A program made the position numbers and the translations under genes. Positions 5,304-54,979 of a DNA stretch of 57,214 bases are shown piece after piece. The DNA comes from Candidatus Nomurabacteria bacterium GW2011_GWB1_43_19 (GTDB taxonomy: Bacteria > Patescibacteriota > Minisyncoccia > Phycocordibacterales > UBA9973): positions 1 to 57,214 of the forward strand of contig LCGB01000001.1 in the NCBI GenBank assembly GCA_000999465.1, in the 5' to 3' direction. Numbering within the stretch: the first letter of the stretch is position 1; each line of letters opens with the position of its first letter. The notes beneath the pieces were generated by a model, which was given only the letters and a program-made list of their open reading frames with translations, was not told the origin of the DNA and did no database searches.

Positions 5304-5822
5304 ATGCGCTCAAAGAAGAAAGGATTTACTCTCATAGAACTCTTGATTGTTGTGGCAATCATTGGAGTGTTGGCTAGTGTGGTTTTGGCATCTCTTAATA
5401 GTGCTCGTGCTAAGGCCAGAAATGCCAACAGAATATCCGGCATCAAACAAATAATTACCGCTTTTAATCTTGCCTATACTGCTGCTTGGCCCATTAATAA
5501 TTCTGGTGCTTGGGCTTGTATTAGCGCTACTTGTTATAACGGCTTTGCTTCATATGTGGCTGTTCCAAACATAGACGCTTTTTTTACGCCCTATATGCCT
5601 TCGAAGCCCATCGACCCTGCCGGCGGATCAACTAATAGATTCGGGGGGGTTATATATAGTCAGTGGGTGGGAGGTACCAGCCCATATGATGGACATATTG
5701 AACCTGCGGGAAATTACATTTATTGGGCGGTTGAACCTCCACTGACTCCGACCTCTTGCGGTCCCGGAAAGATTTGGAATGCGGGAGCGGATTCCGTTAA
5801 CTGTCATTTTAATTTTGAGTAA
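5304..5822 (+). CDS. Type IV pilin-like protein (prepilin N-terminal methylation motif)
   Basis: Internal ATG at 5304 gives MRSKKKGFTLIELLIVVAIIGVLASVVLASLNSARAKAR. This is a class III signal peptide with G-F-T-L-I-E, and I prefer it to the 5214 start in the ORF track. Confidence 0.8.
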   Translation: MRSKKKGFTLIELLIVVAIIGVLASVVLASLNSARAKARNANRISGIKQIITAFNLAYTAAWPINNSGAWACISATCYNGFASYVAVPNIDAFFTPYMPSKPIDPAGGSTNRFGGVIYSQWVGGTSPYDGHIEPAGNYIYWAVEPPLTPTSCGPGKIWNAGADSVNCHFNFE

Positions 5823-6238: not shown

Positions 6239-7828
6239 TCACTGCGTGACCTTCGGGCGGTATTGAATGGCTTCCAGGATATGATTGGACTCCACTTCGG
6301 AAGAACTTTCCAGGTCGGCGATGGTGCGGGCAATTTTAATGACCCGGTGGTAGGCGCGGGCGGAAAGACCCAAGCGTTCGGCGCTGTCGTCCAGCAGGTC
6401 CCGCACTTTCAGGGAAAGTTTGACCATGGAGGACAGGTCTTTCACATTCATTTCGCTGTTGGTCTTTTTTCTACCAGAGGCGGATCCACCTTGGGCGGAA
6501 AATCTGTTTTTTTGAATTTCCCGCGCTTGCATTACCCTCGCTTTTATTTTTTCGCTCCGCTCGCCGTTTCCTTCTCCGCCCAATTTTTTATAGTCCACAT
6601 TTCCAACCGATACCCATAAATCAATGCGGTCCATTATTGGTCCGGATAATTTTCTTCTATAGCGGTCTAGGTCGGAGGGCTTACAGACACATTCTTTCTT
6701 TTTACTGCCCAAATTTCCACAAGGACAAGGATTCATGGCCGCGACTAGGATGAAATTGGAGGGAAAAATAGCCGTGCCTTTGGCGCGAGAAATTGAAACA
6801 ATATTGTCTTCAAGCGGCTGGCGGAGCGATTCTATTACCCTCTTTTCAAATTCCGGAAATTCGTCCAGAAACAAAACTCCGCGGTGCGCCAGCGTCACTT
6901 CTCCCGGCTTCGGAAAAGTTCCCCCGCCGATAATCGCCACATAAGACGAAGTATGATGAGGGGCGCGGAAGGGCGGAAAGCAAACGAGTTCTCCTTCCAG
7001 GTTTCCGGCCACCGAATGAATGCCGGTTATTTCAAGAACTTCTTCCATACCCAAATCCGGCAAGAGTTGCGAAAATGCCCGCGCCAGCATCGTCTTACCG
7101 GTGCCCGGCGGACCATACATGGCAATATTGTGCCCGCCGGCCGCCGCAATTTCCAGTCCGCGCTTGGCGCCTTCCTGTCCGCGAACATCGGAGAAATCCC
7201 CGTCTTTTGTTCCCTTTTTGTAACTGATTGCTGTTTTCGGCTGTTGAGGTATTTTCGTTCCCGACGCTCTAACTTTGTTGGAGGTCGGGACCCCGACCCT
7301 TTTGGGCGTCGGGGCAAGATGCTCCGCCACTTCTTTCAAACTGCTGGCTCCGAAAACTTTTATGCCTTCAACCAGCGCTGCCTCTGCCGCATTTTCTTTC
7401 GGCAAATATATTTCTTCAAAACCGAGCCGTCTGGCCTCTTGAGCGAGCGGCAGGGCGCCGCGAATTCGGCGGAGTGTGCCGTCCAACCCTAGCTCGCCTA
7501 GGAAAATCTTTTTCTCCGAATTGAATTTGATGTCTCCCGAGGCGAGCATATACGAGAGCGCGATGCCGAGGTCAAAAAACGGCCCCTCTTTTTTTAAATC
7601 GGCCGGCGAGAGTGATACTATTATTTTCTGGTTCTGCGCTTTGGGAGATTTGTAACCGGAATTTTTTATTGCCCCGCTGACGCGGTCTTTGGATTCATCC
7701 ACCGCTTTATCCGGCAAGCCGACAACATTAAAAGCGTGAAGTGTTCCTTTGGAAATATCCACCTCAATCGTTACGATGGCGCCCTTAAGCAAATTAACTT
7801 GCGCCGAATAAACTTTTGCAAAGCTCAT
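6239..7828 (-). CDS. comM: Mg-chelatase-like AAA+ ATPase ComM/YifB
   Basis: 529 aa with an N-terminal Lon-protease-like domain, Walker A GPPGTGKT, Walker B LFLDEF and a C-terminal Mg-chelatase subunit ChlI-like domain. Confidence 0.9.
   Translation of the reverse strand: MSFAKVYSAQVNLLKGAIVTIEVDISKGTLHAFNVVGLPDKAVDESKDRVSGAIKNSGYKSPKAQNQKIIVSLSPADLKKEGPFFDLGIALSYMLASGDIKFNSEKKIFLGELGLDGTLRRIRGALPLAQEARRLGFEEIYLPKENAAEAALVEGIKVFGASSLKEVAEHLAPTPKRVGVPTSNKVRASGTKIPQQPKTAISYKKGTKDGDFSDVRGQEGAKRGLEIAAAGGHNIAMYGPPGTGKTMLARAFSQLLPDLGMEEVLEITGIHSVAGNLEGELVCFPPFRAPHHTSSYVAIIGGGTFPKPGEVTLAHRGVLFLDEFPEFEKRVIESLRQPLEDNIVSISRAKGTAIFPSNFILVAAMNPCPCGNLGSKKKECVCKPSDLDRYRRKLSGPIMDRIDLWVSVGNVDYKKLGGEGNGERSEKIKARVMQAREIQKNRFSAQGGSASGRKKTNSEMNVKDLSSMVKLSLKVRDLLDDSAERLGLSARAYHRVIKIARTIADLESSSEVESNHILEAIQYRPKVTQ
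6472..6498. repeat. GGATCC-centred double-hairpin element, degenerate copy inside comM
   Basis: TACCAGAGGCGGATCCACCTTGGGCGG, which in gene sense encodes SAQGGSASGRKK. It belongs to the same family as 11183, 21800 and 31497. Confidence 0.75.
7260..7313. repeat. Intragenic alternating CCCGAC/GTCGGG hairpin cluster in the comM linker
   Basis: Units are CCCGACGC (7260), GTCGGG (7284), CCCGAC (7292) and GCGTCGGG (7306), which can form nested or tandem hairpins. The cluster encodes part of the variable linker PTPKRVGVPTSNKVRASG. Confidence 0.5.
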
Positions 7829-7834
7829 GGCCTT

Positions 7835-7917
7835 TAGCTAGTTATAAGGTAAAAAGTTTGTAAAGTTTGTAAAGCATTTTTCTTTATGAACTTGATGACT
7901 TTATGAACTTTTAACTC
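7835..7917. repeat. AT-rich imperfect palindrome built from AAGTTnnTAAAG-type units (site 1)
   Basis: AAGTTTGTAAAGTTTGTAAAG faces CTTTATGAACTTGATGACTTTATGAACTT, between the comM start and the dksA-like stop. Related sites are at 22748, 37564 and 38708. Confidence 0.55.
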
Positions 7918-8267
7918 TCAAGGTGTTTTTTACAGGTTCGGGCGGCCGGATTGGCTTCCAAACGCGCCGTTTCAATATCTTTTTTGCAAATTTCGCATTT
8001 GCCGAAAGAATCCCTATTCAACTTCTTTAAGGCCTTTAAAATATTGTTCAGACGCGGTTCCAGGGTTCTCATCATTGAACTTCTCGCTTCAAAATCCTCA
8101 AACCGGTCTGCCTTGTCATTCTCGTCCGATTCCGGGAATTCTAGTTGTTCCGGAGTCGCTTCCCACTCTCCCGTCTCCGCGTCCAGTTTGCCCATGTCCT
8201 TGAGCTGCTCCAAGAGGATATCCCGTTCGTGTTCCAGATTTTCTTTAATTTTTTTCTTGTCCGGCAT
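7911..8267 (-). CDS. DksA/TraR-family C4 zinc-finger protein
   Basis: 118 aa, acidic coiled coil followed by CEICKKDIETARLEANPAARTCKKH (CxxC-x17-C). Confidence 0.75.
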   Translation of the reverse strand: MPDKKKIKENLEHERDILLEQLKDMGKLDAETGEWEATPEQLEFPESDENDKADRFEDFEARSSMMRTLEPRLNNILKALKKLNRDSFGKCEICKKDIETARLEANPAARTCKKHLES

Positions 8268-8361
8268 CAGTCAATAATAGCATGTTAATTTCCCATAGCA
8301 AGTGCTATACCCTGTAGTAGAATTTTGAAAAAATTTCACTACGGGGTATACTCCATTTGCC

Positions 8362-8431
8362 TGTCCCGTACTAAATTTTTAATTACGGGATATGTAGATA
8401 AACGTTATTAATAAAATTTTAGTACTGGGAT
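8362..8431. repeat. Inverted-repeat pair (24-mer + 20-mer), copy 1, abutting the metK start codon
   Basis: TGTCCCGTACTAAATTTTTAATTA (8362-8385) and TAAAATTTTAGTACTGGGAT (8412-8431). The second copy at 34606-34711 matches 23/24 and 20/20. Confidence 0.7.
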
Positions 8432-9491
8432 GTTTTACAAGCATGACAACTATACGGTTGAGAGTGTTACCTCCGGCCATCCGGATAAAATCTGCGACCA
8501 GATATCGGATGCCATTTTGGACGCGTATCTGAAAACGGACCCGGAAAGCCGGGTGGCAGTGGAGACCTTCGGGGGGCACGGCAAGTTGGTCATCGGAGGA
8601 GAAATAACCTCCCGAGGAAGAGTTGACTGCGTAAAAATCGCCCGCGAGGTCTATAAAAAAATCGGCTACAAAGACAAGCTTAAAATATCGGCTCGTATCG
8701 TTACCCAGTCCCCGGACATTGCCCGAGGAGTGGATTCGGGCGGAGCCGGCGACCAGGGAATAATGTATGGCTTTGCCACCAAGGAGACGCCGGAATTCCT
8801 GCCGAAGGGAGTGGTACTGGCGCATCAATTGGCAAAAAAACTGGAAGAAGTAAGGAAAAGTAAAAAAATAAAATGGCTCCGGCCGGACGGCAAAACGCAG
8901 GTAACTTACACCAACGGAAGATTGGACACCGTCCTGGTCAGCGCCCAGCACGCCCCCCAAGTGCAGTCGGCGGAAATAAAAAAAGAAATCACCAAAAAAA
9001 TAATTTATCCCCTGCTTTCCCCGAGGGAGCGGAAAGAAGTGAAAATCCTGGTGAACCCAACCGGCCATTTCGTACAGGGCGGATTCAAGGCGGATACCGG
9101 ACTGACCGGACGCAAAATTATGGTGGACACTTACGGCGGAATTATTCCGCACGGCGGAGGATGTTTTTCCGGCAAGGACGCCACCAAGGTGGACCGCTCC
9201 GGCGCCTACATGGCGCGTTTCGCCGCCAAGAACCTGGTGGCCGCGGGCTACGGCAAGGAGGTATTGGTATCGGTTGCTTACGCCATCGGCCTGCCCGAGC
9301 CGCTGATGATTGAAGTCATCAACGAAAAAGGAAAAGATTTGACGAAAATTGTCCGCAAAAATTTTGACTTCCGGCCGCTATCCATCATCCGGCGGCTCGG
9401 TCTGCGCAAGCCGGTTTTTTTCAAAACCGCCGCCTACGGCCACTTCGGCAAAAAAAATCTCCCCTGGGAAAAAATTGAAAAGGTTAAATAA
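8430..9491 (+). CDS. metK: S-adenosylmethionine synthetase
   Basis: 353 aa with ESVTSGHPDKICDQISDAILDA, GAGDQGIMYGFA and GGGCFSGKDATKVDRSGAY, the hallmark MetK motifs. Confidence 0.9.
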   Translation: MFYKHDNYTVESVTSGHPDKICDQISDAILDAYLKTDPESRVAVETFGGHGKLVIGGEITSRGRVDCVKIAREVYKKIGYKDKLKISARIVTQSPDIARGVDSGGAGDQGIMYGFATKETPEFLPKGVVLAHQLAKKLEEVRKSKKIKWLRPDGKTQVTYTNGRLDTVLVSAQHAPQVQSAEIKKEITKKIIYPLLSPRERKEVKILVNPTGHFVQGGFKADTGLTGRKIMVDTYGGIIPHGGGCFSGKDATKVDRSGAYMARFAAKNLVAAGYGKEVLVSVAYAIGLPEPLMIEVINEKGKDLTKIVRKNFDFRPLSIIRRLGLRKPVFFKTAAYGHFGKKNLPWEKIEKVK

Positions 9492-9526
9492 ATTATAAAA
9501 ATTAACTTTGTTAAGGCAATGAAAAT

Positions 9527-10159: not shown

Positions 10160-10171
10160 CTTTTTAAAAGC

Positions 10172-10218
10172 GGCAAAAAAAATCTGCCTTGGAAAAAAAT
10201 TGAAAAGATGAAATAAAT
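10172..10218 (+). repeat. Duplicated metK 3' end (direct repeat of 9447-9493)
   Basis: 42/47 nt identical to the metK terminus. It would encode GKKNLPWKKIEKMK* versus the genuine GKKNLPWEKIEKVK*. Confidence 0.8.
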
Positions 10219-10279
10219 AGTAAATTACGTAATCGATTACATAATTTACTACGTAATGTTATTAGCCTAGAACCAAAAA

Positions 10280-11172: not shown

Positions 11173-13368
11173 TTAATTATTTCCGCCCGAGGCGGATCCG
11201 CCTTTGGCGGAGAAGAAATTTTTATCCGCTTCTTTGATGGACAGGCCGATTCTGCCTCTTTCCAGGTCAATATTTATAATCTTCACCGGCACAATCATGC
11301 CTTCTTTTATTATACTGCCAACATTCTCCACGCGCCATGGCGCTATTTCGGAAATATGCACCATGCCATCGATGAAATCGTTTAACCGCACAAAGGCTCC
11401 GAAGTCGGCGACTTTCACGACTTCACCCTTGAGCATTTCACCTACCTGAAATTCGCGGGTCATTTCTTCCACGATTGCCTTGGCTTTCGCGGCCGAATCG
11501 TCCCGGCCAGTCAGATAAACAGTGCCGTCGTCCTCAATGGTTATTTCCGCTCCCGTCCTTTCCTTTATATCTTTGATAGTTTTTCCTCCCCCGCCGATGA
11601 CCAGTCCGATTTTATCCGGATTGATTTTGATTATCAAAATTTTCGGAGCATTGGGGGAAATATTCGCCCGCGGTTTCGGAATTTCTTTTTCAATCCTATC
11701 TAAAATGGCCAGCCGCGCGGATTTCCCCTGTTTCATCGCCTCGCCCAGTATTTTTATCGGCACGCCCTCCACCTTCACATCAAGCTGGATGGCGGTAACG
11801 CCGTTCCGGGTGCCGGCAATTTTGAAATCCATATCACCATAATGATCTTCCGGTCCCTGAATGTCGGTCAAAATTTTATATCTGTCATCGGACTCGTACA
11901 TTAGACCCATGGCAATGCCGGCCACCGGCGCCTTAATAGGCACACCGCCGTCCATCAGAGCCAGAGTAGAAGCGCAGATTGATGCTTGAGAAGTGGAACC
12001 GTTGGAAGCCATTGACTCGGAAACAATCCGGATGGTGTACGGAAATTCCATCGCCGTTGGCAGCACCATCTCCAGTGCTTTTTCGGCGAGGGCTCCGTGT
12101 CCGACTTCCCGGCGGTTAGTAAATCCGGCCCGGCCCACTTCTCCGGACGAGTAAGGGGGGAAGTTGTAATGATGCATGAATCTTTTTTCTTCTTTGAGCT
12201 GCAACCCGTCAACCAAATTCCTGTCTTCCGGTCCGCCCAAGGTCAAAACCGAGAGGACATGCGTCCCTCCGCGGTAGAAAATTCCCGAACCGTGGAGAAT
12301 GCTGGAGAGTTCCCCGGCTTGCGCGTAGAGGTCGCGAAGTTCATCCATCTTCCGGCCGTCGGCGCGCTTGTTTTGCTCTATCGCGCTCTTATGCAGAATA
12401 TCGTTTTCCGTATCGTCAAACAAATCGTCTTCCAGGGCAAAGTCCTCTCGGTCCGGGAATTTTTCGCTGTAGTATTCTCTTGCCAAATTGTTCCAAGTAG
12501 TATGTAAGGCATCTATTTTTTCTTTGCCCGCCTCTGCGTGGCCGAAGCCCGCTTCGGCGAGGCGAAGGCCCGCTTCTCCGAAAAGCGCTTCTTCTATGTG
12601 AGGCAGGATGTTTTCGTTAAATAAAATGACAGATTCGGGAGAAATCGTTTCTTTTTCTATTGCTCTTTTCTCTTTCCCTATTTCAGCCATTATTTTCTTC
12701 TGAAAATCCTCCAGTTTGGCTATTTCCCGGCTGGCTTCTTCCAGCGCCGCTTCCAGTTCCGCCTCGGCGATTTGGTGAGCGGACGCCTCAATCATATTTA
12801 TCTTGCCGTCTTTGCCGCAGACCGTCAGGTCAAATTTATAGGGCGCATCGTCTTCCAGGCGCAAGGACTGTGGAGGGTTGATTTGGAGTCCATTGCCGTC
12901 ATACTTGCCGATACGCACGCAGCCGATGGGGCCATTCCAAGGAATATTAGAAACGGAAAGCGCCAAGGATGCGGCGTTTACCGCTAAAATTGTCGGGTCG
13001 TTATCGTCAACGGAAAGAACCGTCACAATTACCTGTACCGCGTGACGAACCGACTGATCAAAAAGCGGGCGCAGGGTACGGTCTATCACCCGGCTGGCCA
13101 AGATGGCCTCCTCCGACGGCTTGCCTTCTCGGCGGACAAAACGGGAGCCGAGAATTTTTCCGGCCGCGTAAAACTTTTCCGTATAATCAACCGTCAGATT
13201 GAAGTATCCTAAACCCTGCTGTTTATCCTTGGACATGCAGGCGGTGGCCAAGACAATCGTCTCTCCGCATTTCAGGATTACCGAACCATGCGCCTGTTCC
13301 GCTAAGTCGCTAAAAACGGCCGTTAAAGTTTTGCCTCCGATTTCCACGCTATACTCTTTTTTCTTCAT
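11173..13368 (-). CDS. pnp: Polyribonucleotide nucleotidyltransferase (PNPase)
   Basis: Two RNase PH domains, KH (GGGGKTIKDI) and S1 (GEVVKVADFGAFVRL). I prefer ATG at 13368 (MKKKEYSVEIGG) to the TTG at 13389. Confidence 0.9.
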   Translation of the reverse strand: MKKKEYSVEIGGKTLTAVFSDLAEQAHGSVILKCGETIVLATACMSKDKQQGLGYFNLTVDYTEKFYAAGKILGSRFVRREGKPSEEAILASRVIDRTLRPLFDQSVRHAVQVIVTVLSVDDNDPTILAVNAASLALSVSNIPWNGPIGCVRIGKYDGNGLQINPPQSLRLEDDAPYKFDLTVCGKDGKINMIEASAHQIAEAELEAALEEASREIAKLEDFQKKIMAEIGKEKRAIEKETISPESVILFNENILPHIEEALFGEAGLRLAEAGFGHAEAGKEKIDALHTTWNNLAREYYSEKFPDREDFALEDDLFDDTENDILHKSAIEQNKRADGRKMDELRDLYAQAGELSSILHGSGIFYRGGTHVLSVLTLGGPEDRNLVDGLQLKEEKRFMHHYNFPPYSSGEVGRAGFTNRREVGHGALAEKALEMVLPTAMEFPYTIRIVSESMASNGSTSQASICASTLALMDGGVPIKAPVAGIAMGLMYESDDRYKILTDIQGPEDHYGDMDFKIAGTRNGVTAIQLDVKVEGVPIKILGEAMKQGKSARLAILDRIEKEIPKPRANISPNAPKILIIKINPDKIGLVIGGGGKTIKDIKERTGAEITIEDDGTVYLTGRDDSAAKAKAIVEEMTREFQVGEMLKGEVVKVADFGAFVRLNDFIDGMVHISEIAPWRVENVGSIIKEGMIVPVKIINIDLERGRIGLSIKEADKNFFSAKGGSASGGNN
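11183..11210. repeat. GGATCC-centred double-hairpin element, copy at the pnp C-terminus
   Basis: CCGCCCGAGGCGGATCCGCCTTTGGCGG, the exact reverse complement of 31497-31524. It encodes the terminal SAKGGSASGGNN* of PNPase. Confidence 0.85.
12541..12576. repeat. Intragenic tandem hairpins in pnp (GAAGC-CC-GCTTC units)
   Basis: GCCGAAGCCCGCTTCGGC followed by GAAGGCCCGCTTC. They encode LRLAEAGFGHAEAG in the variable inter-domain helix region. Confidence 0.45.
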
Positions 13369-20117: not shown

Positions 20118-20612
20118 TTACGGATACAAAACTTCATAGAAGCCGGCCGCAGGAGTAGGCACGGAGCCCCATGTATACGGCGTAATCTGGTAAGCGGCCG
20201 TTTCAAAATATACTCCAAGCTTCGGCGTACCGTCGGGATACCCTGTATAGAAATAAATATCTCCTTGAGGACCCACAAGGCTACAAGTTGAGGAGAGATA
20301 AGGAATAAGACCCCCGTCTCCTCCTGTCCCGCAAGGCGGGTATCCGGTTGTACCGGCATAATTATTGTCACTAATCCAATAGACCGTATCGTAACTTCTG
20401 GCAGGATAATAGCCGTGGTCATTATAATACAATTCTAAAGCATTTTTTATAGACCGGATATCGCCAAGGCGTCGCGCGTCGCGCGCTTTGGCTCGCGCGG
20501 AATTAAGAGAAGCCAAAACCACACTAGCCAACACTCCAATGATTGCCACAACAACCAAGAGTTCTATGAGAGTAAATCCTTTCTTAAAATTTATCTTAAA
20601 AACTGAATACAT
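20118..20612 (-). CDS. Type IV pilin-like protein (second paralogue)
   Basis: 164 aa with KKGFTLIELLVVVAIIGVLASVVLASLNSARAKAR. The N-terminal coding DNA is 82/84 identical to pilin 1. Confidence 0.8.
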   Translation of the reverse strand: MYSVFKINFKKGFTLIELLVVVAIIGVLASVVLASLNSARAKARDARRLGDIRSIKNALELYYNDHGYYPARSYDTVYWISDNNYAGTTGYPPCGTGGDGGLIPYLSSTCSLVGPQGDIYFYTGYPDGTPKLGVYFETAAYQITPYTWGSVPTPAAGFYEVLYP

Positions 20613-20619
20613 TGTTTAA

Positions 20620-22230
20620 TCATGTACTATTTTTTCTTACTCCGTGTTTAGTATGCAACTTCTCAATCTCTTGCTCTTCTAAACTTTCTTTTTTCTCTTT
20701 TCCGCGCTCGCCCAGGGTCCGGAGCTCCGCATCGCCCAGCACATTGAGCGATTTCGTCAGTTCCGAGAGATGCTCTACTGTATTTTTCTCCGGAGCGTCC
20801 AGGATTTCTTCCAAAAGCGCGTGCAAAATCCATCCCATCCTCGGTCCCGGCTTAATCTCTAGTTCTTTTATCATAAATTCTCCGTCAATTTTCAGTTGGC
20901 CGACGGAAATCGGGTCCCGCAAGGCCTCTTCAATCATCGCGAAATACTTGCGCAGGCGGTAGGGCACTTCTTTTTTCTTCATTCCCACCCGATCACATTC
21001 ACGGACATTCATTAAGAGCCAGATATTCTCCACACTGACTTTAGTGATGATCCTCCGCACGGCCGAGAGCGTAATTAACTCCGTGTCGGAGAAGAACATA
21101 TGGTTACGGACAAGCTTTTCCACCAGTTCGGTCTCCTTTTTCGAGAACCGGAGCCGTTCCATTATTTTTTTCGCCATCCGCGCGCCGATAACCTCGTGGC
21201 CGTAGAATGTGTATTTCTTTTTTGAATTTATTTTCGGAGCCGGATGTGCAAAATCGAGTCCGTGTCGGAGCCCGCTTGCGGGTAAAGCGGCGAGATTTTG
21301 CATATCCGACGAAGAATTAGCATTTCTTCTACTTCTCGGCTTCCCGATATCGTGAAAAAGCGCCGATAACCTTATTTCTAAAGGCCATTTCTTGTCCGCC
21401 GCATGCTGGACGGCATGGAGTAAATGCTCCCAAACGTCATAGATATGCTCCCCCAGTTGTTCGCAACCCACCCCTTCCAGAAGCTCCGGAATGGTATTTT
21501 TCAGCAAGCCGAGCTTCTGCAACATAACAATTCCGCTGGCTGGATTGTCCGACATGATTATTTTTACAAACTCGTCCCGAATCCGCTCAAAGGATATTTT
21601 TTGGAGCAAGTCGGCATTTTTTAAAATACTTTCGGTTGTTTCATACGACACAGAAAAGTTAAGTTGGCAAGCCAAACGGACAGCCCGCAGCATGCGGAGC
21701 GCATCCTCGGTAAACCGGTCATCCGGATTGCCTACTGCTTTTAACGTTTTATCTTGGATGTCCTTTATGCCCCCGAAAAGGTCAACTATCTGTCCTTTTC
21801 CGCCTGAGGTGGATCCGCCTTTGGCGGAAGAGTTCAATGCGAGGGCATTAATAGTGAAATCACGTCTTTTAAGGTCGTCTTCCAGCTTGTCGCTGAACTT
21901 TACCTCATCCGGATGTCTAAAATCGCTATATTTTGCCTCAATTCTATAGGGGGTAACCTCAACGACTCTTAATGTTTCTTGTGAAACATCTTCCTGAATA
22001 ACAGCGACTGTTCCAAAGGCATTCTCATATACTGTCTTTTTAAACAGGGAGATAATTTCCTCCGGTTTGGCATTGGTTGCGACATCCCAGTCCTTAGGTT
22101 CTGTTCCCATTACAAGGTCGCGGACGCATCCGCCGACCAGATATGCCTCAAAACCCGCTTTTTCAAGTGTGTCTGTTACATGTGAAACTTCTTTGGGTAT
22201 TTTTTTTATTAAACTGTTGATGTTTTCCAT
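20620..22230 (-). CDS. cca: CCA-adding enzyme / poly(A) polymerase family with HD domain
   Basis: 536 aa with the nucleotidyltransferase motif LVGGCVRD...DWD, RRDFTINA and HD-domain LFHDIGKP. It carries two palindromic insertions. Confidence 0.85.
   Translation of the reverse strand: MENINSLIKKIPKEVSHVTDTLEKAGFEAYLVGGCVRDLVMGTEPKDWDVATNAKPEEIISLFKKTVYENAFGTVAVIQEDVSQETLRVVEVTPYRIEAKYSDFRHPDEVKFSDKLEDDLKRRDFTINALALNSSAKGGSTSGGKGQIVDLFGGIKDIQDKTLKAVGNPDDRFTEDALRMLRAVRLACQLNFSVSYETTESILKNADLLQKISFERIRDEFVKIIMSDNPASGIVMLQKLGLLKNTIPELLEGVGCEQLGEHIYDVWEHLLHAVQHAADKKWPLEIRLSALFHDIGKPRSRRNANSSSDMQNLAALPASGLRHGLDFAHPAPKINSKKKYTFYGHEVIGARMAKKIMERLRFSKKETELVEKLVRNHMFFSDTELITLSAVRRIITKVSVENIWLLMNVRECDRVGMKKKEVPYRLRKYFAMIEEALRDPISVGQLKIDGEFMIKELEIKPGPRMGWILHALLEEILDAPEKNTVEHLSELTKSLNVLGDAELRTLGERGKEKKESLEEQEIEKLHTKHGVRKNST
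21241..21308. repeat. 68-nt imperfect palindrome inside the cca HD domain
   Basis: CGGATGTGCAAAATC...(inner CCGCTT-GCGGGTA-AAGCGG)...GATTTTGCATATCCG. It encodes an extra segment between HDIGKP and FYGHE. Confidence 0.65.
21800..21827. repeat. GGATCC-centred double-hairpin element, copy inside cca
   Basis: CCGCCTGAGGTGGATCCGCCTTTGGCGG, which in gene sense encodes SSAKGGSTSGGKG. Confidence 0.85.
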
Positions 22231-30971: not shown

Positions 30972-32059
30972 AACTCGTCGAAGATACAACTTTTGGAGGG
31001 GGTTTGCCGAGCGACGGCGAGGCAACTTCAGGATTTTTTAATCTTCAAAAAATCCGTACCCAGAAAAAGTTTGTACCGAGAAAGAGTTTAGGGCAAAATT
31101 TTTTAAAATCGGAACCGGCTTTAAAAAAAATTATTGAGGCGGGAGAAGTAAAAAAGGACGATATAATTTTGGAAATCGGACCGGGCAGGGGCAAGCTGAC
31201 GGAAAAACTTTTGGAGCGCGCCGGGCTCGTCATCGCCGTGGAAAAAGACCGCGAACTTTTTGAGTTTTTGAAAACAAAGTTTGAGAAAGAAATAGAAACA
31301 AATGCTTTTGTGTTAATTCATGGGGACGTATTGAATTTTGATGTTCGCGAAACAATTCTCAAATTTTTCTCAGGTCCTCGGATTTCCGGGTCCCTATCCC
31401 GGCCAGACCATTCGAAAAATTTAGAATTGCTTCGCTATAAAATCATCGCCAACATTCCTTACAACATTACCGGAGCGATACTTAGAAAGTTTTTGTCCGC
31501 CAAAGGCGGATCCGCCTCGGGCGGAAAAAAATTTCTGACCGCCCGGAACCAGCCGGAGCGGATGGTGTTGATGGTCCAGAAAGAGGTGGCTGAAAGAATT
31601 CTTGGCAGGAGAGAAAATATTTCATACTCAAAACCTAGCCATGGCAGAAAATTGGGTAAGGAAAGTATATTATCTATTTCCGTCAAGGCCTACGGGGAGC
31701 CCAAAATGATAATGAAAGTGCCGGCGCGATATTTCTCCCCGACGCCGCAAGTAGACTCGGCGGTGATTTTGATAAAAAATATTTCTAGGAAAAATTTTGA
31801 AATCCCAGCCCAGCCCTCCCCAAAGGAGAGGGAGAGATTTGGAGCCTCCCCTTTTGGGGGAGGTATGGAGGGGGTAAATGAAGAAAGATTCTGGAAAATA
31901 GTAAAAGCGGGCTTTGCGCACAAGAGAAAAAAACTCTCCGGCAACCTGAAAAACCTTGTTTCTTTGGAAAAAACGAACTTGGCGGTTTTTAAAGACAAAA
32001 GGGCGGAGGATTTATCCCTTACGGACTGGATTTTACTGGCCCGCACACCTAATTTATAA
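30968..32059 (+). CDS. rsmA: 16S rRNA (adenine1518/1519-N6)-dimethyltransferase RsmA/KsgA, expanded by repeat insertions
   Basis: SLGQNFL, LEIGPGRGKLT, IIANIPYNITG and a C-terminal helical domain. It is 363 aa (family members I recall are ~260-290 aa). ATGA overlaps the pcrA stop. Confidence 0.85.
   Translation: MKLVEDTTFGGGLPSDGEATSGFFNLQKIRTQKKFVPRKSLGQNFLKSEPALKKIIEAGEVKKDDIILEIGPGRGKLTEKLLERAGLVIAVEKDRELFEFLKTKFEKEIETNAFVLIHGDVLNFDVRETILKFFSGPRISGSLSRPDHSKNLELLRYKIIANIPYNITGAILRKFLSAKGGSASGGKKFLTARNQPERMVLMVQKEVAERILGRRENISYSKPSHGRKLGKESILSISVKAYGEPKMIMKVPARYFSPTPQVDSAVILIKNISRKNFEIPAQPSPKERERFGASPFGGGMEGVNEERFWKIVKAGFAHKRKKLSGNLKNLVSLEKTNLAVFKDKRAEDLSLTDWILLARTPNL
30990..31069. repeat. 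80-nt two-hairpin module, copy B (inside the rsmA 5' coding region)
   Basis: 67/80 identical to 1865-1944. The hairpin GGATTTTTT-7nt-AAAAAATCC is conserved, and the first hairpin differs by paired substitutions. Confidence 0.75.
31497..31524. repeat. GGATCC-centred double-hairpin element, copy inside rsmA
   Basis: CCGCCAAAGGCGGATCCGCCTCGGGCGG encodes SAKGGSASGGKK. It is 28/28 identical to the pnp copy in gene sense. Confidence 0.85.
31814..31863. repeat. CCCTC/GAGGG + CCTCCCC/GGGGAGG double hairpin inside rsmA
   Basis: CCCTCCCCAAAGGAGAGGG then CCTCCCC-TTTT-GGGGGAGG. It encodes PSPKERERFGASPFGGGMEG. Confidence 0.65.
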
Positions 32060-34576: not shown

Positions 34577-34605
34577 AATATGAAAAAGTTTCTGCCTTAC
34601 ATTCT

Positions 34606-34711
34606 TGTCCCGTACTAAATTTTTGATTAAGTTATATAAAAATGAAAAAGGTTATAAAAGAAAAAAGTAAATCAAGAATAAAAACTAAAAGTAAAATTTT
34701 AGTACTGGGAT
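34606..34711. repeat. Inverted-repeat pair (24-mer + 20-mer), copy 2, bracketing the start of the VirB6-like gene
   Basis: TGTCCCGTACTAAATTTTTGATTA (34606-34629) and TAAAATTTTAGTACTGGGAT (34692-34711). The right arm lies in the signal-anchor codons KILVLG. Confidence 0.7.
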
Positions 34712-36990
34712 TAATACTGATAATCGCAGCCGGATTTTTTATCTCGGTACAAAATGTAAGCGCGCAAGAAGTAAAAAGGGCTTGCTATGATGGAGATTTT
34801 TTCTTTGTTTCAGGAGTCACAGATGAGACAGATTGCAAAAGCAGGGGCGCTGACCATCATTGGTGGACTTCGGCAGAAGCTGCGGCCGCTTTAACGGCTT
34901 CACGACAACGAGACCCTTCAAAGAAAATGTGTTTTGACTCAAAGGGATTTTCTACCAGCGCCACAACTGAAACAGAATGTTTAACTCCCGCGGGAAATGG
35001 AAATGTCTGGAGGACGGCGGCAGAACAAGCAGCGGCAAATGCGACAATATCAGCTAACCAGTCGCCATTTGACGCAGCAGTAAATCTTTCCAAGAACTCA
35101 TGCAATGTCACCCCCGTTGGTGGGGGCAGTTTTGTAGGATGCATATTGCAGTTCGTTTATTGGACTTTCTATACACTTGGAGCTTGGTTGCTGGCTATCG
35201 CTGCTTCTTTTTTCAACTACTTCATAAAAATCACCCTGGGCCCCGAGCTACTCAAGTCGGATTTCGTCTCCCATGCCTGGGGAGTGGTGCGGGACCTTTC
35301 AAATATTTTCTTCATTCTCATCCTGCTTTTTATAGCCATCAAAATTATTCTAGATCTAGGTGGAAGTGAGGCAAAAAAAATGATAGCCAAGGTTATAATC
35401 ATCGCCTTGCTCATAAACTTTTCCATGTTTTTCACCCACATGGTCATTGATTCTTCAAATATCTTGGCATTAATTTTTTACAATAAGCTTAATACGGTTG
35501 ATGAAAAAAATCCCAACAAGGCGGAACAGCTGATTGATTATGCCACTGGACAAAAAGACCTGGCCGGGGGACTGACCCAATCTTTCAACCCGGTATATAA
35601 ACTGGATAACAAATTCTTCACCGAGGCCAAAGAAATAAGAATACCGGGACGGCCCCCCATAAAGGAGCCGGTTTCAACTGGCACCTTGATCGGAATCACT
35701 GTGATAGCCGGAGCGATTATGCTCTTTGCCGCCTACGCTTTATTTATTTCAGCTTTGGCTTTTCTAGGCCGGTTGATTGAACTTTTTGTATTAATCATTT
35801 TTTCGCCCTTTGCTTTTATGTCTTTTGCCGTACCAAAACTAGCTGGTATTGAATACTTGGGGTGGGGGGCTTGGTCTAAGCGCCTGCTTACGGTGTCATT
35901 TATGGCGCCGATTTTCATGTTTTTCCTTTACTTCATATTCTTATTGCTGGGGGAAAGCGAAGGGAAAAACATGTTTACCGACTCCCTAAAGGGAGAAGGG
36001 ATGGTGCGGACACTTTTGAGTATAATAATTCCGGCCATGGTGGTTTTGATTCTGCTTCTGAAGGCAACTGAATTCGCCAAAAAGGGCTCTGGGACGTTCG
36101 GGGAAGCTATTATAAAAGGAGGAAAAATGGTGGCGGGTGTTGCCGGAGGGCTTGCCTTGGGAGCCGCGACCGGCGGAGCAGGGTTCGCGCTCAGGGCCGG
36201 AATTGGAGGCGTAGGGGGAACCCTTGCTAATAAAACAGCTTCGGGGGTAAACTGGCTCGCGAAGAAAGATAGTTGGATAGGCAAGGGAGCAAGAGGATTG
36301 GGAGCCAATAGGATTGCCAGCGGGCTGACATATGCGGGCGCATTGGCGCAAAGGAGCAGTTTTGACCTTCGCGCCGGTGGCGGATTGGCTAGAATGACTG
36401 GCCTTAATATCGGCCAGGCACAGAAGGGCGGAAGAGAACAAGCAAGGAAAGATAAAGTGGAAAAAAGACAAAAGAGGGCAAATATGCTCAAGGTTAGAGA
36501 TGATGAAAGTATAAGCAAAAAGATAAGAGCTAAGGAAATGGACTTGCAAGTAATGTTAAATAAGGTTGCCGGAGATTTTCATACATTAGATGAAGCAATA
36601 AAAGATAAAAGACAAGACAAAAGAGACGAAACAGACCCAGTAGAAAAAAGAAGGATTACCAATGAAATTAAAGAACTATTAGCTGTAAAAAAGACTATAA
36701 AATCAGGAGGGGTGGCAACTCTGGCCGCGGGGAAACTGGGCGCTGGCTCTGCCGCAAGAACCTTTACGGGGCCAACACAGAATGGTGAAACTATCAAAAG
36801 TTTGTCAAATTCTAATAATGGCATAATCACAGAACTAAAAAACAAAAAAGAACTTGAGAGCAGGAGAAGGACGACTGCTTTTGCTAAAAGAACAGGAAGA
36901 TGGTACAAGGGATCGGCCAACAAACAAGCAAAGTATGAAATAATTATGGAGTCAAAAATAGCAACTCCAGGGGAAGACCATTCAACATAA
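34642..36990 (+). CDS. Polytopic membrane protein, VirB6/TrbL-like
   Basis: 782 aa: signal anchor, Cys-rich extracytoplasmic domain, at least 6 TM helices, a Gly-rich segment and a charged C-terminal tail. The assignment rests on architecture and its position next to VirB4. Confidence 0.5.
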   Translation: MKKVIKEKSKSRIKTKSKILVLGLILIIAAGFFISVQNVSAQEVKRACYDGDFFFVSGVTDETDCKSRGADHHWWTSAEAAAALTASRQRDPSKKMCFDSKGFSTSATTETECLTPAGNGNVWRTAAEQAAANATISANQSPFDAAVNLSKNSCNVTPVGGGSFVGCILQFVYWTFYTLGAWLLAIAASFFNYFIKITLGPELLKSDFVSHAWGVVRDLSNIFFILILLFIAIKIILDLGGSEAKKMIAKVIIIALLINFSMFFTHMVIDSSNILALIFYNKLNTVDEKNPNKAEQLIDYATGQKDLAGGLTQSFNPVYKLDNKFFTEAKEIRIPGRPPIKEPVSTGTLIGITVIAGAIMLFAAYALFISALAFLGRLIELFVLIIFSPFAFMSFAVPKLAGIEYLGWGAWSKRLLTVSFMAPIFMFFLYFIFLLLGESEGKNMFTDSLKGEGMVRTLLSIIIPAMVVLILLLKATEFAKKGSGTFGEAIIKGGKMVAGVAGGLALGAATGGAGFALRAGIGGVGGTLANKTASGVNWLAKKDSWIGKGARGLGANRIASGLTYAGALAQRSSFDLRAGGGLARMTGLNIGQAQKGGREQARKDKVEKRQKRANMLKVRDDESISKKIRAKEMDLQVMLNKVAGDFHTLDEAIKDKRQDKRDETDPVEKRRITNEIKELLAVKKTIKSGGVATLAAGKLGAGSAARTFTGPTQNGETIKSLSNSNNGIITELKNKKELESRRRTTAFAKRTGRWYKGSANKQAKYEIIMESKIATPGEDHST

Positions 36991-41301: not shown

Positions 41302-41352
41302 AGCAGGCATTAGATCTAGGCGTTAGACCTTAGTAAATGATATAATTGAAAT

Positions 41353-42339
41353 ATGAGGTTAAAATTTTTATTTATATTTTTAATTACGGGATTTATGGTA
41401 ATGGGAATTATTTTACCGTTAAAGACCAACGCCGCCTCGTCTAGTAGTATTTTAGTGAATATAGCGCCTGAAAATCCGGCTCCAAATGAAAATGTAGACA
41501 TTAATTTGAGTAGTTACGCCTATAATTTGGACAATGTTTTGATATCGTGGTCGGTAGACGGTAAAAATTCTTTGTCGGGGATTGGTAGAAAATCTTTCTT
41601 GATAAACGCCCCGGCCGCCGGCTCGGAAACAAGTGTCGTGGCTATGATTTCTTTGCCGGACGGCGCAGTAGATATAAGAATAATAATAAGGCCCGCTATT
41701 ATGGTGCTACTCTGGCAGGCAAATGACTCGTATGTTCCGCCTTTTTATAGGGGCAAGGCAATGCCGACACCGGACAGTGAAGTGAAAGTGGTGGCTATGC
41801 CGGAAATAAAAAGCGGTTCTACTTTTGTTGATTCAAAAAATATGACTTACGCTTGGAAACAGGATTACAATAATGACCAAGAAGCTTCAGGTTATGGTAA
41901 AAATTCTTTTATTTATATGAATGATTACCTGGACAACTCAAACAACATCTCGGTCACGGCTTCAACCATAGACCAAAAGTATTTCTCGGAGGCAAGTTTG
42001 GATATAGGAACAACCCAGCCAAAGATTTTATTTTACAAAAATGACGCCAATCTGGGAACAATCTGGGAAAAAGCGCTCTCTAACGGACATAAAATAACGG
42101 GTGATGAAATTGTGGAGGCGGTTCCGTATTTTATATCACCAAAAGACATACGGATTCCGATATTAACTTGGAACTGGTTTATTAACGACAGTTTGGTAAA
42201 TATCCTTGGTTCCAGAAAAAATTTGATGCCGCTTAAAATAGAGGCTGGGGTTTCCGGGACAGCAAAAATAAAACTGGAAGTTAATAATACTTACAAGGTT
42301 TTTGAATCGGCCAGCAAGGAAATCAGCGTGGAATTTTAA
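41353..42339 (+). CDS. Secreted hypothetical protein (signal peptide; beta-rich)
   Basis: 328 aa with MRLKFLFIFLITGFMVMGIILPLKTNA, then repetitive beta-strand-like sequence. It is part of the T4SS-like operon. Confidence 0.55.
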   Translation: MRLKFLFIFLITGFMVMGIILPLKTNAASSSSILVNIAPENPAPNENVDINLSSYAYNLDNVLISWSVDGKNSLSGIGRKSFLINAPAAGSETSVVAMISLPDGAVDIRIIIRPAIMVLLWQANDSYVPPFYRGKAMPTPDSEVKVVAMPEIKSGSTFVDSKNMTYAWKQDYNNDQEASGYGKNSFIYMNDYLDNSNNISVTASTIDQKYFSEASLDIGTTQPKILFYKNDANLGTIWEKALSNGHKITGDEIVEAVPYFISPKDIRIPILTWNWFINDSLVNILGSRKNLMPLKIEAGVSGTAKIKLEVNNTYKVFESASKEISVEF

Positions 42340-54882: not shown

Positions 54883-54958
54883 CCCGTTAGAAACAGGTCG
54901 CGGTCGTACCGTGACTGCCTCGAATTATTTTATAATAGCGACCGCGGTTTCTAACGGG
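54883..54958. repeat. Long bulged hairpin between yebC and ruvC (CCCGTTAGAAAC termini)
   Basis: CCCGTTAGAAAC-AGGT-CGCGGTCG ... 32 nt ... CGACCGCGGTTTCTAACGGG. The stem is 20 bp with a 4-nt bulge and starts 1 nt upstream of the ruvC ATG. Confidence 0.7.
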
Positions 54959-54979
54959 ACTCATAAATAGATTTTAGCA

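What the first reader, a model, noticed from the sequence alone, without database searches (positions are those of the whole stretch)
8362..8431. Conserved 24-mer/20-mer inverted-repeat pair brackets the translation starts of metK and the VirB6-like gene
Locus 1 has TGTCCCGTACTAAATTTTTAATTA (8362-8385), 26 nt of spacer, then TAAAATTTTAGTACTGGGAT (8412-8431). Locus 2 has the same 24-mer (23/24, 34606-34629), 62 nt of spacer, then the same 20-mer (20/20, 34692-34711). The two arms are imperfect reverse complements (CCCGTACTAAATTTT versus AAAATTTTAGTACTGGG). At metK the right arm ends in the ATG (8430), so pairing would occlude the initiation region. In locus 1 the left arm can alternatively pair with the nearby TAATTACGGG (8380-8389), giving mutually exclusive structures. 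A third related hairpin lies just upstream (8307-8349). At the VirB6-like gene the ATG (34642) lies in the loop, and the right arm encodes KILVLG of the signal anchor. A 17-mer from the same region (ATTTTTAATTACGGGAT, 8375-8391) recurs at 41376-41392 in another signal peptide. This could be a MITE-like element or a shared translational control element.
Basis: seen in the sequence. Interest (0 to 1): 0.6.

Follow-up and report, generated by a model that had tools for sequence, protein, structure and literature searches.

The report
Mobile hairpin repeats abutting start codons
The two repeats are copies of a large family of small mobile DNA hairpins, found in one group of tiny groundwater bacteria (Candidatus Nomurabacteria), that sit exactly in front of gene start codons and would fold the start codon into the base of an RNA stem.

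Summary
The 24-mer and 20-mer are the arms of a 70-120 nt hairpin element. This 623-kb genome holds 12 canonical copies and at least 5 variant copies. A covariance model built from the canonical copies matches 99 of 151 species genomes of the genus, but only 1 of 150 other genomes of the order. Of 77 copies examined, 73 end ...GGG|ATG, with that ATG starting a real gene. Downstream genes are unrelated housekeeping genes (ribosomal proteins, metK, ftsA, pilT and others), so this is not SAM control. The arms covary strongly, including G-U pairs on the sense strand. Empty versus filled orthologous sites (metK, rplE, rpsI, ruvC) show precise insertion immediately 5' of the ATG. One subfamily carries 5-bp direct repeats ATGNN. 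At orthologous loci the arms are 91% identical while four-fold sites are 35% identical. The host genome is largely leaderless. Where a promoter lies upstream, the predicted start of transcription falls on the element's first base, so the hairpin is the whole 5' UTR. Best reading: a MITE-like hairpin family that homes to start codons, is co-transcribed, and is kept folded by selection. Its effect on translation is inferred, not shown. No Rfam family matches and I found no paper describing it.

The parts
8359..8429 (+). Canonical element copy (unit GCC-TGTCCCGT...CTGGG) forming the whole predicted 5' UTR of metK. The ATG follows at 8430.
   Evidence: sequence. Covariance-model hit of 95.5 bits. 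Homologous flanks without the element in G124 and L264.
8362..8379 (+). Left arm (5' strand of the stem).
   Evidence: Pairs with 8413-8431 in the consensus fold. Covariation.
8412..8431 (+). Right arm (3' strand of the stem). Its foot GGG abuts the metK ATG.
   Evidence: Predicted P(unpaired) of G-3..G-1 is 0.00-0.06.
8384..8392 (+). Proximal box TACGGGATA, complementary to the left foot TGTCCCGTA (candidate alternative hairpin).
   Evidence: minimum-energy fold of the metK leader. Family-wide 76% of cells paired, weak covariation.
8347..8352 (+). -10-like hexamer TATACT. The 7th base downstream (G8359) is the element's first base, the predicted transcription start.
   Evidence: Same geometry in other copies. 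Relatives have TATACT-N6-ATG, i.e. leaderless.
8310..8346 (.). Separate 37-nt hairpin with a related foot (CCCTGTAG...CTACGGGG), inserted into the metK promoter region between two TATA copies.
   Evidence: Absent from the homologous flank of G124 and L264. Covariance-model echo on the minus strand at 18.4 bits, E=0.64.
34603..34709 (+). Long-loop copy (locus 2). The arms are 34606-34623 and 34692-34709. It ends GGGATT, not GGGATG.
   Evidence: Covariance-model hit of 51.7 bits. The same layout is found in two other species (L004, L063:394).
34642..36990 (+). 782-aa secreted or membrane ORF whose ATG lies in the loop and whose residues KILVLG are encoded by the right arm.
   Evidence: No Pfam family. 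Orthologues in 5 species lack the hairpin and start MKKHLSKILIS... or MPRKIKKIIPY....
54883..54959 (-). Variant copy (TCCCGTTAG...CTAACGGG) in front of ruvC, flanked by the direct repeat ATGAG (54960-54964 and 54878-54882).
   Evidence: RuvC confirmed by Pfam. Orthologous sites are empty in G022, G007 and G114. G124 is filled with repeat ATGAT. G133 is filled with another subfamily.
54971..54979 (-). Extended -10 TGCTAAAAT, 6 nt upstream of the left ATGAG copy (the ancestral leaderless ruvC promoter).
   Evidence: G022 has TGCTAAAAT-TTAAAT-ATG at the empty site.
41376..41392 (+). 17-mer identical to part of the metK copy, lying inside the signal-peptide coding region of ORF 41353-42339. Possible relic; unresolved.
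   Evidence: exact match; only the window's two sites plus one 1-mismatch site in the genome.

Best explanation
The arms belong to a lineage-specific family of short, non-autonomous mobile hairpin elements of MITE or REP-like kind. The canonical unit is about 74 nt: ACY-TGTCCCGT, stem, loop, stem, (Y)GGG. These elements have inserted, many times and independently, exactly between the last upstream base and the ATG of protein-coding genes, always in the sense orientation. The host transcribes many genes as leaderless mRNAs. As a result, the element becomes either the entire 5' UTR, with the predicted transcription start on its first base, or the spacer between the upstream stop codon and the ATG. 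In the transcript the arms form a 16-20 bp stem. The 5' foot of that stem lies within about 3 nt of the 5' end or a few nt after the upstream stop. The 3' foot (GGG) touches the AUG. Shown here: family size, orientation, adjacency to the ATG, arm covariation, insertion polymorphism, 5-bp ATGNN direct repeats in one subfamily, and strong conservation at orthologous loci. Inferred: (a) that the pairing acts in RNA; (b) that once inserted the stem must stay intact for the gene to be translated, either because it keeps the 5' end or stop codon next to the AUG or because a terminating ribosome or the proximal alternative hairpin opens it, which would explain the purifying selection; (c) that ATG targeting is a property of the unknown transposition machinery combined with survival of only those insertions that sit at true start codons.
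For: G000 has 12 canonical copies, all co-oriented with the downstream ORF, and 10 of 12 end GGGAT|G at the ORF start. Downstream genes were confirmed by Pfam as L5, Map, SDR, sigma-r4 protein, AtpZ-like, PilT-like, FtsW, S2, Sua5/TsaC, S9, MetK and RuvC. The covariance model matches 99 of 151 genus genomes with about 500 hits, against 1 of 150 other genomes of the order. Of 77 hits, 73 have ATG at the 3' foot. Covariation: 97.2% of cells are paired and 56 cells have a change on both sides, against 9.9 in shuffles (0 of 500 reach it); slid controls give 28-56% paired. At least 7 distinct stem sequences keep pairing. Empty versus filled sites are clearest for L258 against L259...atatatttt|ATG versus ...atatatttt|ACC...GGG|ATG. 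The same is seen at rplX-rplE and rplM-rpsI, at metK in G124 and L264 against G000, and at ruvC, which shows three states. Perfect 5-nt direct repeats ATGNN flank 5 copies of the CTAACGGG-foot subfamily. Loop subfamilies are dispersed before different genes. Orthologous copies (35 pairs) are 91% identical in the arms, 91% in the inner stem and 75% in the loop, against 52% in the flank and 35% at four-fold sites. The host is largely leaderless: TGNTANNNT ends 6 nt before the ATG in 57 of 517 genes against a background of about 1, and GGAGG occurs in 4 of 519. An extended -10 ends exactly 6 nt before the element's first base in 9 copies. The long stem is favoured by 3-16 kcal/mol over a state with the right arm and start codon unpaired.
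Against: There are no RNA data, so transcription and RNA folding are inferred. G-T pairs on one strand would also be expected for a single-strand DNA transposition intermediate. Canonical copies show no target duplication: the fixed 5-mer ACYTG sits where the duplicated ATGNN sits in the other subfamily. No autonomous partner was found. No pair of matching ends 200-6000 nt apart exists in G000. None of the 17 Y1-transposase loci examined is flanked by the element. Two of 5 high-copy genomes have no Y1_Tnp match at all. High conservation could come partly from gene conversion among copies rather than selection. A stable stem on the start codon of highly expressed ribosomal-protein genes is hard to reconcile with efficient translation unless something opens it. 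The ftsA copies have a consensus extended -10 (TGATATAAT) inside the loop. Transcripts from that promoter would lack the left arm, yet the right arm is conserved.
Confidence: 0.65

Rival explanations
1. A host-evolved cis-regulatory RNA, i.e. a translational operator or switch shared by a housekeeping regulon. The long stem would hide the AUG. The proximal hairpin (left foot with the ACGGGA box), a protein or a small RNA would free it. Mobility would be incidental.
For: The start codon lies at the stem foot in 73 of 77 copies. Arms and part of the loop are conserved far above neutral sites. A proximal complementary box is present in many copies, with 76% of cells paired. Predicted occlusion of G-3..G-1.
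Against: Loops range from 26 to about 80 nt and are unrelated between subfamilies, so there is no common ligand or protein pocket beyond the foot. The gene set differs from species to species: metK carries the element in 1 of 80 metagenomic loci, and rplE, rpsI and ruvC are filled or empty by species. Fifty-two of 151 genus genomes have no match, and the element is nearly unseen outside the genus. Covariation for the proximal hairpin is weak. The ATGNN direct repeats indicate transposition.
Confidence: 0.2
2. A REPIN-like element mobilised by one of the genome's RAYT-type Y1 (HUH) transposases through a single-stranded DNA hairpin. The conserved TGT 5' of the foot would act as a guide that recognises ATG.
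For: G000 encodes 4 Y1_Tnp proteins (3 over the Pfam cut-off), each flanked by its own palindrome. Canonical insertions lack target duplication, as in IS200/IS605 (the IS200/IS605 property is recalled). TGT is wobble-complementary to ATG (read from the sequence). Mini-hairpins with the same foot occur elsewhere in the genome.
Against: None of the 17 Y1_Tnp loci in 4 genomes is flanked by the element. The two nearby copies lie about 0.9-1.4 kb away. G048 and G054 have 18 copies each but no Y1_Tnp match. The palindromes flanking the RAYT genes are GC-rich and unrelated in sequence. One subfamily makes 5-bp direct repeats, which HUH single-strand transposition does not do (recalled).
Confidence: 0.1
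3. A DNA-level site: two half-sites for a dimeric regulator bracketing a promoter, or a mobile promoter cassette with a -10-like (C/T)ATAA(A/T) 17 nt after the left arm.
For: A -10-like hexamer lies at a fixed distance from the left arm in many loops. It is a consensus TGATATAAT in the ftsA copies.
Against: Different stem sequences with compensatory changes coexist in the same genome. This fits pairing, not recognition by one protein. G-U pairs are tolerated on the sense strand only. Canonical loops lack the TG of the extended -10 that real promoters of this genome carry. The element sits inside ribosomal-protein operons.
Confidence: 0.05

Closest known systems
Correia elements (CREE/NEMIS) of Neisseria (properties recalled, not tested here)
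   Same: Short non-autonomous inverted-repeat elements in many copies. Often inserted just upstream of genes and co-transcribed. Fold into long hairpins in the mRNA and can alter expression.
   Different: Correia elements duplicate TA and land at variable distances from the start codon. Here insertion is flush with the ATG, with either no duplication or 5-bp ATGNN. Sequence, size (70-120 nt) and host (Ca. Nomurabacteria, Patescibacteria) are unrelated.
REP/REPIN elements with RAYT transposases (properties recalled; RAYT-like genes seen)
   Same: Imperfect palindromes with a conserved foot and bulged bases. Many copies. The same genome encodes RAYT-like Y1 proteins with their own flanking palindromes.
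   Different: REPINs are extragenic in either orientation, mostly 3' of genes, and flank their RAYT. This element is strictly sense-oriented at start codons and flanks no Y1 gene.
Rickettsia palindromic elements (RPE) (recalled)
   Same: Palindromic repeats that can become part of coding sequence. In locus 2 the loop supplies the ATG and the right arm encodes KILVLG.
   Different: RPEs insert in frame within genes. Here coding use is the exception (3 of 77, one orthologous group).
Start-codon-occluding leader hairpins used in translational coupling and RNA thermometers (general mechanism, recalled)
   Same: The initiation region is paired with an upstream segment, so initiation needs the stem to open.
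   Different: Those are locus-specific, evolved structures, usually built around a Shine-Dalgarno sequence. This is one portable sequence family in a genome that hardly uses Shine-Dalgarno.
SAM-I riboswitch (RF00162)
   Same: Occupies the metK leader in related species (5 of 20 loci scanned; also seen by eye in G114 and G012).
   Different: No Rfam match in the window. The element has no conserved aptamer and precedes unrelated genes.

Membership tests
MITE (miniature inverted-repeat transposable element) | Short, non-coding, many dispersed copies | tested here: met
   70-121 nt. 12 canonical plus at least 5 variant copies in G000. About 500 hits in 99 of 151 genus genomes.
MITE (miniature inverted-repeat transposable element) | Terminal inverted repeats | tested here: met
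   The arms are inverted repeats from the foot TCCCG...CGGGA inward. 97.2% of cells are paired across 77 copies.
MITE (miniature inverted-repeat transposable element) | Target-site duplication | tested here: inconclusive
   Perfect 5-nt direct repeats ATGNN flank 5 copies of one subfamily. None is present in the canonical subfamily (L258 against L259).
MITE (miniature inverted-repeat transposable element) | Presence or absence at orthologous sites | tested here: met
   Seen at metK, rplE, rpsI and ruvC.
MITE (miniature inverted-repeat transposable element) | Autonomous partner with the same ends | tested here: not met
   No matching ends 200-6000 nt apart in G000. Other genomes were not scanned for this.
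REPIN/RAYT system | A RAYT (Y1_Tnp) gene flanked by the repeat | tested here: not met
   0 of 17 Y1_Tnp loci are flanked. G048 and G054 have many copies but no Y1_Tnp match.
REPIN/RAYT system | Extragenic, no fixed orientation to genes | tested here: not met
   73 of 77 copies abut a start codon in the sense orientation.
Riboswitch (SAM or other) | Conserved ligand-binding core upstream of functionally related genes | tested here: not met
   No Rfam hit. Loops are unrelated between subfamilies. Downstream genes are unrelated.
Translational operator or occluding leader hairpin | Start codon region base-paired in the mRNA, with opening needed for initiation | not testable with these tools
   Only predicted: G-3..G-1 P(unpaired) is about 0 in 8 of 10 copies. 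No RNA data.
Intrinsic terminator | GC-rich stem followed by a U run | tested here: not met
   The stem is followed by AUG and coding sequence, not a T run.

The most novel reading that the evidence does not exclude
The family may be a start-codon-homing mobile element whose target is defined by the initiation codon itself, as suggested by the ATGNN duplication and by a conserved TGT next to the foot that is wobble-complementary to ATG. In a leaderless, Shine-Dalgarno-poor host the hairpin may work as a structural bridge. It would keep the mRNA 5' end or the upstream stop codon next to the AUG, so that 70S leaderless-type initiation or termination-reinitiation still works across 70-120 inserted bases. 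In effect this would be a bacterial counterpart of ribosome shunting, now fixed by selection in dozens of housekeeping genes.
Probability: 0.22. Interest if true: 0.85.

Novelty: new variant of a known kind. Interest (0 to 1): 0.66.

Why it matters
Small mobile hairpins are common in bacteria, but I know of none that sit flush against start codons genome-wide. If the targeting is real, it points to an insertion mechanism that recognises ATG in context. If the stem is needed for expression, it bears on an open question. How do genome-reduced Patescibacteria, which here show almost no Shine-Dalgarno signal and a strong leaderless signature, initiate translation on internal or leadered cistrons? 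The family also gives a ready-made natural mutagenesis series for testing RNA-structure effects on leaderless-type initiation: many stems, loops and genes, with both empty and filled sites. Practically, it explains a recurrent conserved non-coding block in Ca. Nomurabacteria assemblies. It also warns against reading it as a metK riboswitch.

Tried and rejected
RNA evidence: the look-up of sequencing runs listed no RNA holder of window 7900-9500. The six listed runs hold next to none of its words.

Rfam: no family matched at gathering score in the window. Only sub-threshold noise appeared at E-value thresholds.

Shine-Dalgarno idea: GGGA sits 1 nt from the AUG and the genome hardly uses GGAGG (4 of 519), so I rejected it. 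A search for the 16S 3' region in G000 with a short conserved motif found nothing. Pairing to the organism's own rRNA tail could therefore not be checked.

Internal sigma-70 promoter in canonical copies: no acceptable -35/-10 pair by eye, and the -10-like hexamer lacks the TG typical of this genome's promoters. I kept this only as a minor rival.

Proximal alternative hairpin: counted. It gave 76% paired against 74% in shuffles, which is inconclusive because the left strand hardly varies.

Upstream-stop distance as evidence for coupling: 44 of 61 operonic copies have the stop 4-16 nt before the CCC. This follows automatically from insertion next to the ATG in short spacers, so I do not count it as support.

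An upstream reading frame running through the ruvC copies to a TAA 4 nt before the AUG is open in G000 and G124 (read). Three other copies of that subfamily stop early, so it is not a general mechanism.

RAYT link: tested and not found.

Autonomous partner in G000: not found.

Strain-level empty site for the window's own metK copy: the metagenome scan found no relative above 83% identity.

Literature: searches for 'leaderless'+'Patescibacteria', 'Nomurabacteria'+'hairpin', 'Candidate Phyla Radiation'+'leaderless', and 'miniature inverted-repeat'+'start codon'+'leaderless'+'bacteria' returned nothing on such an element. I read only matched passages of PMC12641178, PMC12641261 and PMC6851277, and none bears on it. 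Subscription-journal papers and supplementary files were not searchable.

Structure prediction, protein-homology searches and complex prediction were not used because they do not bear on a non-coding element.

Full report
OBSERVATION. The sequences are as described. The left arm lies at 8362-8385 and 34606-34629 (23/24 identical). The right arm lies at 8412-8431 and 34692-34711 (20/20). The metK ATG is at 8430, and the ATG of the 782-aa ORF at 34642 lies in the loop. Each arm occurs twice in the window against 0.00 expected in 100 shuffles. MetK is confirmed by Pfam. The 782-aa protein has no Pfam hit, so 'VirB6-like' is unverified.

A FAMILY, NOT TWO LOCI. The window belongs to a 623,370-bp assembly of 24 contigs at about 43% G+C. 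The right arm has 12 sites at <=2 mismatches and the left arm 11 at <=3 mismatches. Together they give 12 arm pairs, typically 70-72 nt. All are co-oriented with the downstream ORF, and 10 of 12 end GGGAT|G with that ATG opening the ORF. Pfam confirms the downstream genes as L5, methionine aminopeptidase, a short-chain dehydrogenase, a sigma-70-region-4 protein, an AtpZ-like protein, a PilT-type ATPase, FtsW/RodA, S2, Sua5/TsaC and S9, besides MetK. A structure-independent scan found further variant copies with other stems. These lie before ruvC (window 54883-54959, minus strand), an aminoacyl-tRNA synthetase, a superoxide-dismutase-like gene, a ComF-like gene and murJ. Apart from RuvC (Pfam), these gene names are my reading of the N-termini.

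DISTRIBUTION. A covariance model was built from 11 G000 copies. It matches 99 of 151 species genomes of the same genus at E<=1e-3, with 1-20 hits each: 150 listed plus 351 more. This tally includes G000 and one unpublished genome, G076, whose sequence I did not use. In a sample of the order it matches 1 of 150 other genomes. A pattern search had shown four long-loop relatives in one other family, G029. An exact 25-mer of the element occurs in at least 116 stretches of the species-genome collection. Their titles read Candidatus Nomurabacteria, Paceibacterota or Patescibacteria, and some are labelled Saccharibacteria by their depositors. No Rfam family matches. Four literature searches found no description.

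ANATOMY AND PAIRING. I collected 77 non-redundant hits from G000, six well-assembled relatives and a few others. The invariant parts are (T)AC(C/T)-TGTCCCGT at the left and (C/T)GGG-ATG at the right. Between them the stem sequence changes in blocks while staying complementary. Examples are GTACTAAATTTT with AAAATTTTAGTAC, GTTAGAAATT with AAATTTCTAAT, GTATGAAATTTT with AAAATTTTCATAC, GTATCAAAAT with ATTTTTGATAC, and GTAGTAAATT with AATTTTACTAC. On the model-fitted alignment, 97.2% of pair cells are standard pairs. Fifty-six cells carry changes on both sides, against 9.9 in shuffles (0 of 500 reach it). Sliding one strand drops pairing to 28-56%. The alignment is fitted to the structure, which favours it, but the compensations are plain to the eye. 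G-U pairs are frequent on the sense strand (GU 15 and 59 cells at two positions). They would be A-C mismatches on the other strand. This fits RNA, or one specific DNA strand. Loops are 26 to about 80 nt and fall into unrelated subfamilies.

POSITION. Of the 77 hits, 73 have ATG directly after the GGG foot. The three ATT cases are one orthologous group, the locus-2 type. The one ATA case (map) has an in-frame ATG 6 nt upstream, inside the right arm (my reading). Sixty-one of 77 follow a same-strand ORF of >=70 codons ending within -45 to +80 nt. For 44 of those the stop lies 4-16 nt before the CCC. In the ftsA copies the upstream ybeY-like frame (named from its HG.LHL motif, my reading) runs through the left arm. 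Its TGA stop lies inside a consensus TGATATAAT in the loop.

HOST CONTEXT. Among 517 crude gene starts, TANNNT ends exactly 6 nt before the ATG in 108, against about 15 at other offsets. The extended form TGNTANNNT does so in 57, plus 19 at 7 nt, against about 1 elsewhere. GGAGG occurs upstream of 4 of 519 starts. By established practice this is the signature of leaderless mRNAs. In copies not preceded by a gene, the same extended -10 ends 6 nt before the A (or G) of ACY in 9 copies, and 7-8 nt before it in 4 more. For metK the layout is TATACT (8347-8352), 6 nt, then G8359. The predicted transcript therefore begins on the element's first base and the hairpin is the whole 5' UTR.

MOBILITY. 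Two metagenomic metK loci have nearly identical flanks. L258 reads ...atatatttt|ATG. L259 reads ...atatatttt|ACC-TGTCCCG...CTGGG|ATG. This defines a 74-nt unit that includes ACY, inserted flush with the ATG and with no duplication. Only 1 of 80 metK loci carries the element. Among the others, G124 and L264 have leaderless promoters with flanks homologous to the window's. G059 has a short leader. A SAM-I riboswitch is present in 5 of 20 loci scanned and in G114 and G012 by eye. The rplX-rplE spacer is empty in 5 species and filled in G000 and G124. The rplM-rpsI spacer is empty in G124, G114 and G007 and filled in G000 and G133. ruvC shows three states. It is empty and leaderless in G022 and G007, and empty and operonic in G114. 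It is filled with a CTAACGGG-foot copy flanked by ATGAG/ATGAG in G000 and by ATGAT/ATGAT in G124. It is filled with a different, ACTTG-type copy in G133. Perfect 5-nt direct repeats beginning ATG also flank L055, L057 and the murJ copy. One copy not at a gene has a 4/5 repeat. Loop subfamilies are scattered before different genes. For example, the AATGACCAC loop precedes map and genes I read from their N-termini as holA-like, ftsQ-like, pilC, tgt and fpg. No pair of matching ends 200-6000 nt apart exists in G000.

CONSTRAINT. I compared 35 pairs of copies at orthologous genes. These pairs are not independent, and the sets were chosen by downstream protein identity. Arms are 91% identical, the inner stem 91% and aligned loop columns 75%. 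The 30-nt upstream flank is 52% identical, and four-fold degenerate third positions of the adjacent genes are 35% identical. Locus-specific marks, such as the C bulge of the sigma-gene copies in three species, persist. Simple homogenisation by gene conversion is therefore unlikely to be the whole story, but I cannot exclude it. One orthologous pair (L068 and L050) carries different stem subfamilies behind the same promoter.

FOLDING. Single-sequence folds give -16 to -23 kcal/mol, with z-scores from -1.6 to -4.5. For transcripts starting at ACY, the long stem is favoured by 3-16 kcal/mol over the best fold that leaves the right arm free. The three G before the AUG have P(unpaired) of about 0 in 8 of 10 canonical copies. 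It recurs across stem subfamilies but has only weak covariation support.

INTERPRETATION. Taken together, this is a MITE- or REP-like mobile hairpin family with an unusual and very precise habit. It sits in the sense orientation, flush against start codons, in a host that mostly makes leaderless mRNAs. The element is then necessarily transcribed with the gene. I infer that the stem forms in the mRNA and that selection keeps it. One possible reason is that a folded insert leaves the 5' end or the upstream stop codon next to the AUG. Another is that the stem gates initiation and is opened by a terminating ribosome or by the proximal hairpin. The cause of ATG targeting is unknown. The ATGNN duplication shows that the cut site includes the start codon. 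Survival only at true starts probably sharpens the pattern. A link to the genome's four RAYT-like Y1 transposases was tested and not found.

LOCUS 2. Three species share a copy in which the ORF starts in the loop and the right arm codes KILVLG, ending GGGATT. Orthologues in five other species lack the hairpin. Two of them read ...SKILIS... at the homologous place. The right arm there therefore overlaps native signal-anchor coding sequence. How this copy arose is unresolved.

LIMITS. Genome samples are draws, not censuses. Copy counts from the model miss divergent stems. Gene names outside searches are my reading of N-terminal sequences. The properties of Correia, REPIN, RPE and IS200/IS605 elements are recalled, not tested.

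Noticed in passing
G000 C13:1649-2293(+), C6:24593-25279(+), C5:15900-16595(+); C4 match at 8851-9117(-): Four Y1_Tnp (RAYT-like, HUH motif PNHFH) ORFs of 214-244 aa in a 623-kb genome. Three score over the Pfam cut-off. Each is bracketed by its own GC-rich palindrome. Relatives hold 0-6 such genes.
   Followed up: partly
whole G000; example window 41338-41355: Strong leaderless signature. The extended -10 TGNTANNNT ends 6 nt before the ATG in 57 of 517 genes, and there is almost no Shine-Dalgarno signal. At 41338-41355 the layout is TGATATAAT-TGAAAT-ATG.
   Followed up: yes
L268, L269, L271, L273, L275; also G114 and G012 metK loci (L092, L091): Related species carry a SAM-I riboswitch (RF00162) and a terminator upstream of metK. 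G000 has none.
   Followed up: partly
G000 C5:4135-4163, C5:5337-5365, C10:5334-5362, C8:13244-13292: Mini-hairpins of 29-49 nt with the same foot (TGTCCCGTAG...CTACTGGGA) but short GC-containing tops. They lie just after stop codons and antisense to the flanking genes. They may be a minimal or ancestral form of the family.
   Followed up: partly
window 8310-8346: A 37-nt hairpin with a related foot splits the metK promoter region between two TATA copies. It is absent from the homologous flank in G124 and L264. I found no second copy in G000.
   Followed up: partly
window 6465-6508, 11177-11220, 21794-21837, 31491-31534: A family of GC-rich palindromes (TTTTCCGCC..GGATCC..GGCGGAAAA) at gene ends. 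A copy also lies between rplM and rpsI in G000 and G007. These look like bidirectional terminators or REP-like repeats.
   Followed up: no
window 5316-5416 and 20485-20585: A 101-nt inverted repeat, 91% complementary, with arms 15 kb apart.
   Followed up: no
window 9446-9499 and 10171-10224; 1843-1963 and 30968-31088: Direct repeats of 54 nt (87% identical; the first covers the 3' end of metK) and 121 nt (75% identical).
   Followed up: no
G000 C2:27059-27130 (L022): In the copy before map, the foot reads GGGGATA. An in-frame ATG lies 6 nt upstream inside the right arm, so the start codon appears to have moved into the stem.
   Followed up: partly
L072, L064, L007, L080, L042, L005 (ftsA loci of six species): The upstream ybeY-like frame reads through the left arm. 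It stops at a TGA that is part of a consensus extended -10 (TGATATAAT) in the loop. One DNA stretch therefore serves as coding sequence, stem and probable promoter.
   Followed up: partly
window 34642-36990 and 33089-34576: Two large neighbouring ORFs (782 and 495 aa) have no Pfam family at E<=1e-3. The N-termini of the 782-aa protein's orthologues diverge strongly between species.
   Followed up: partly
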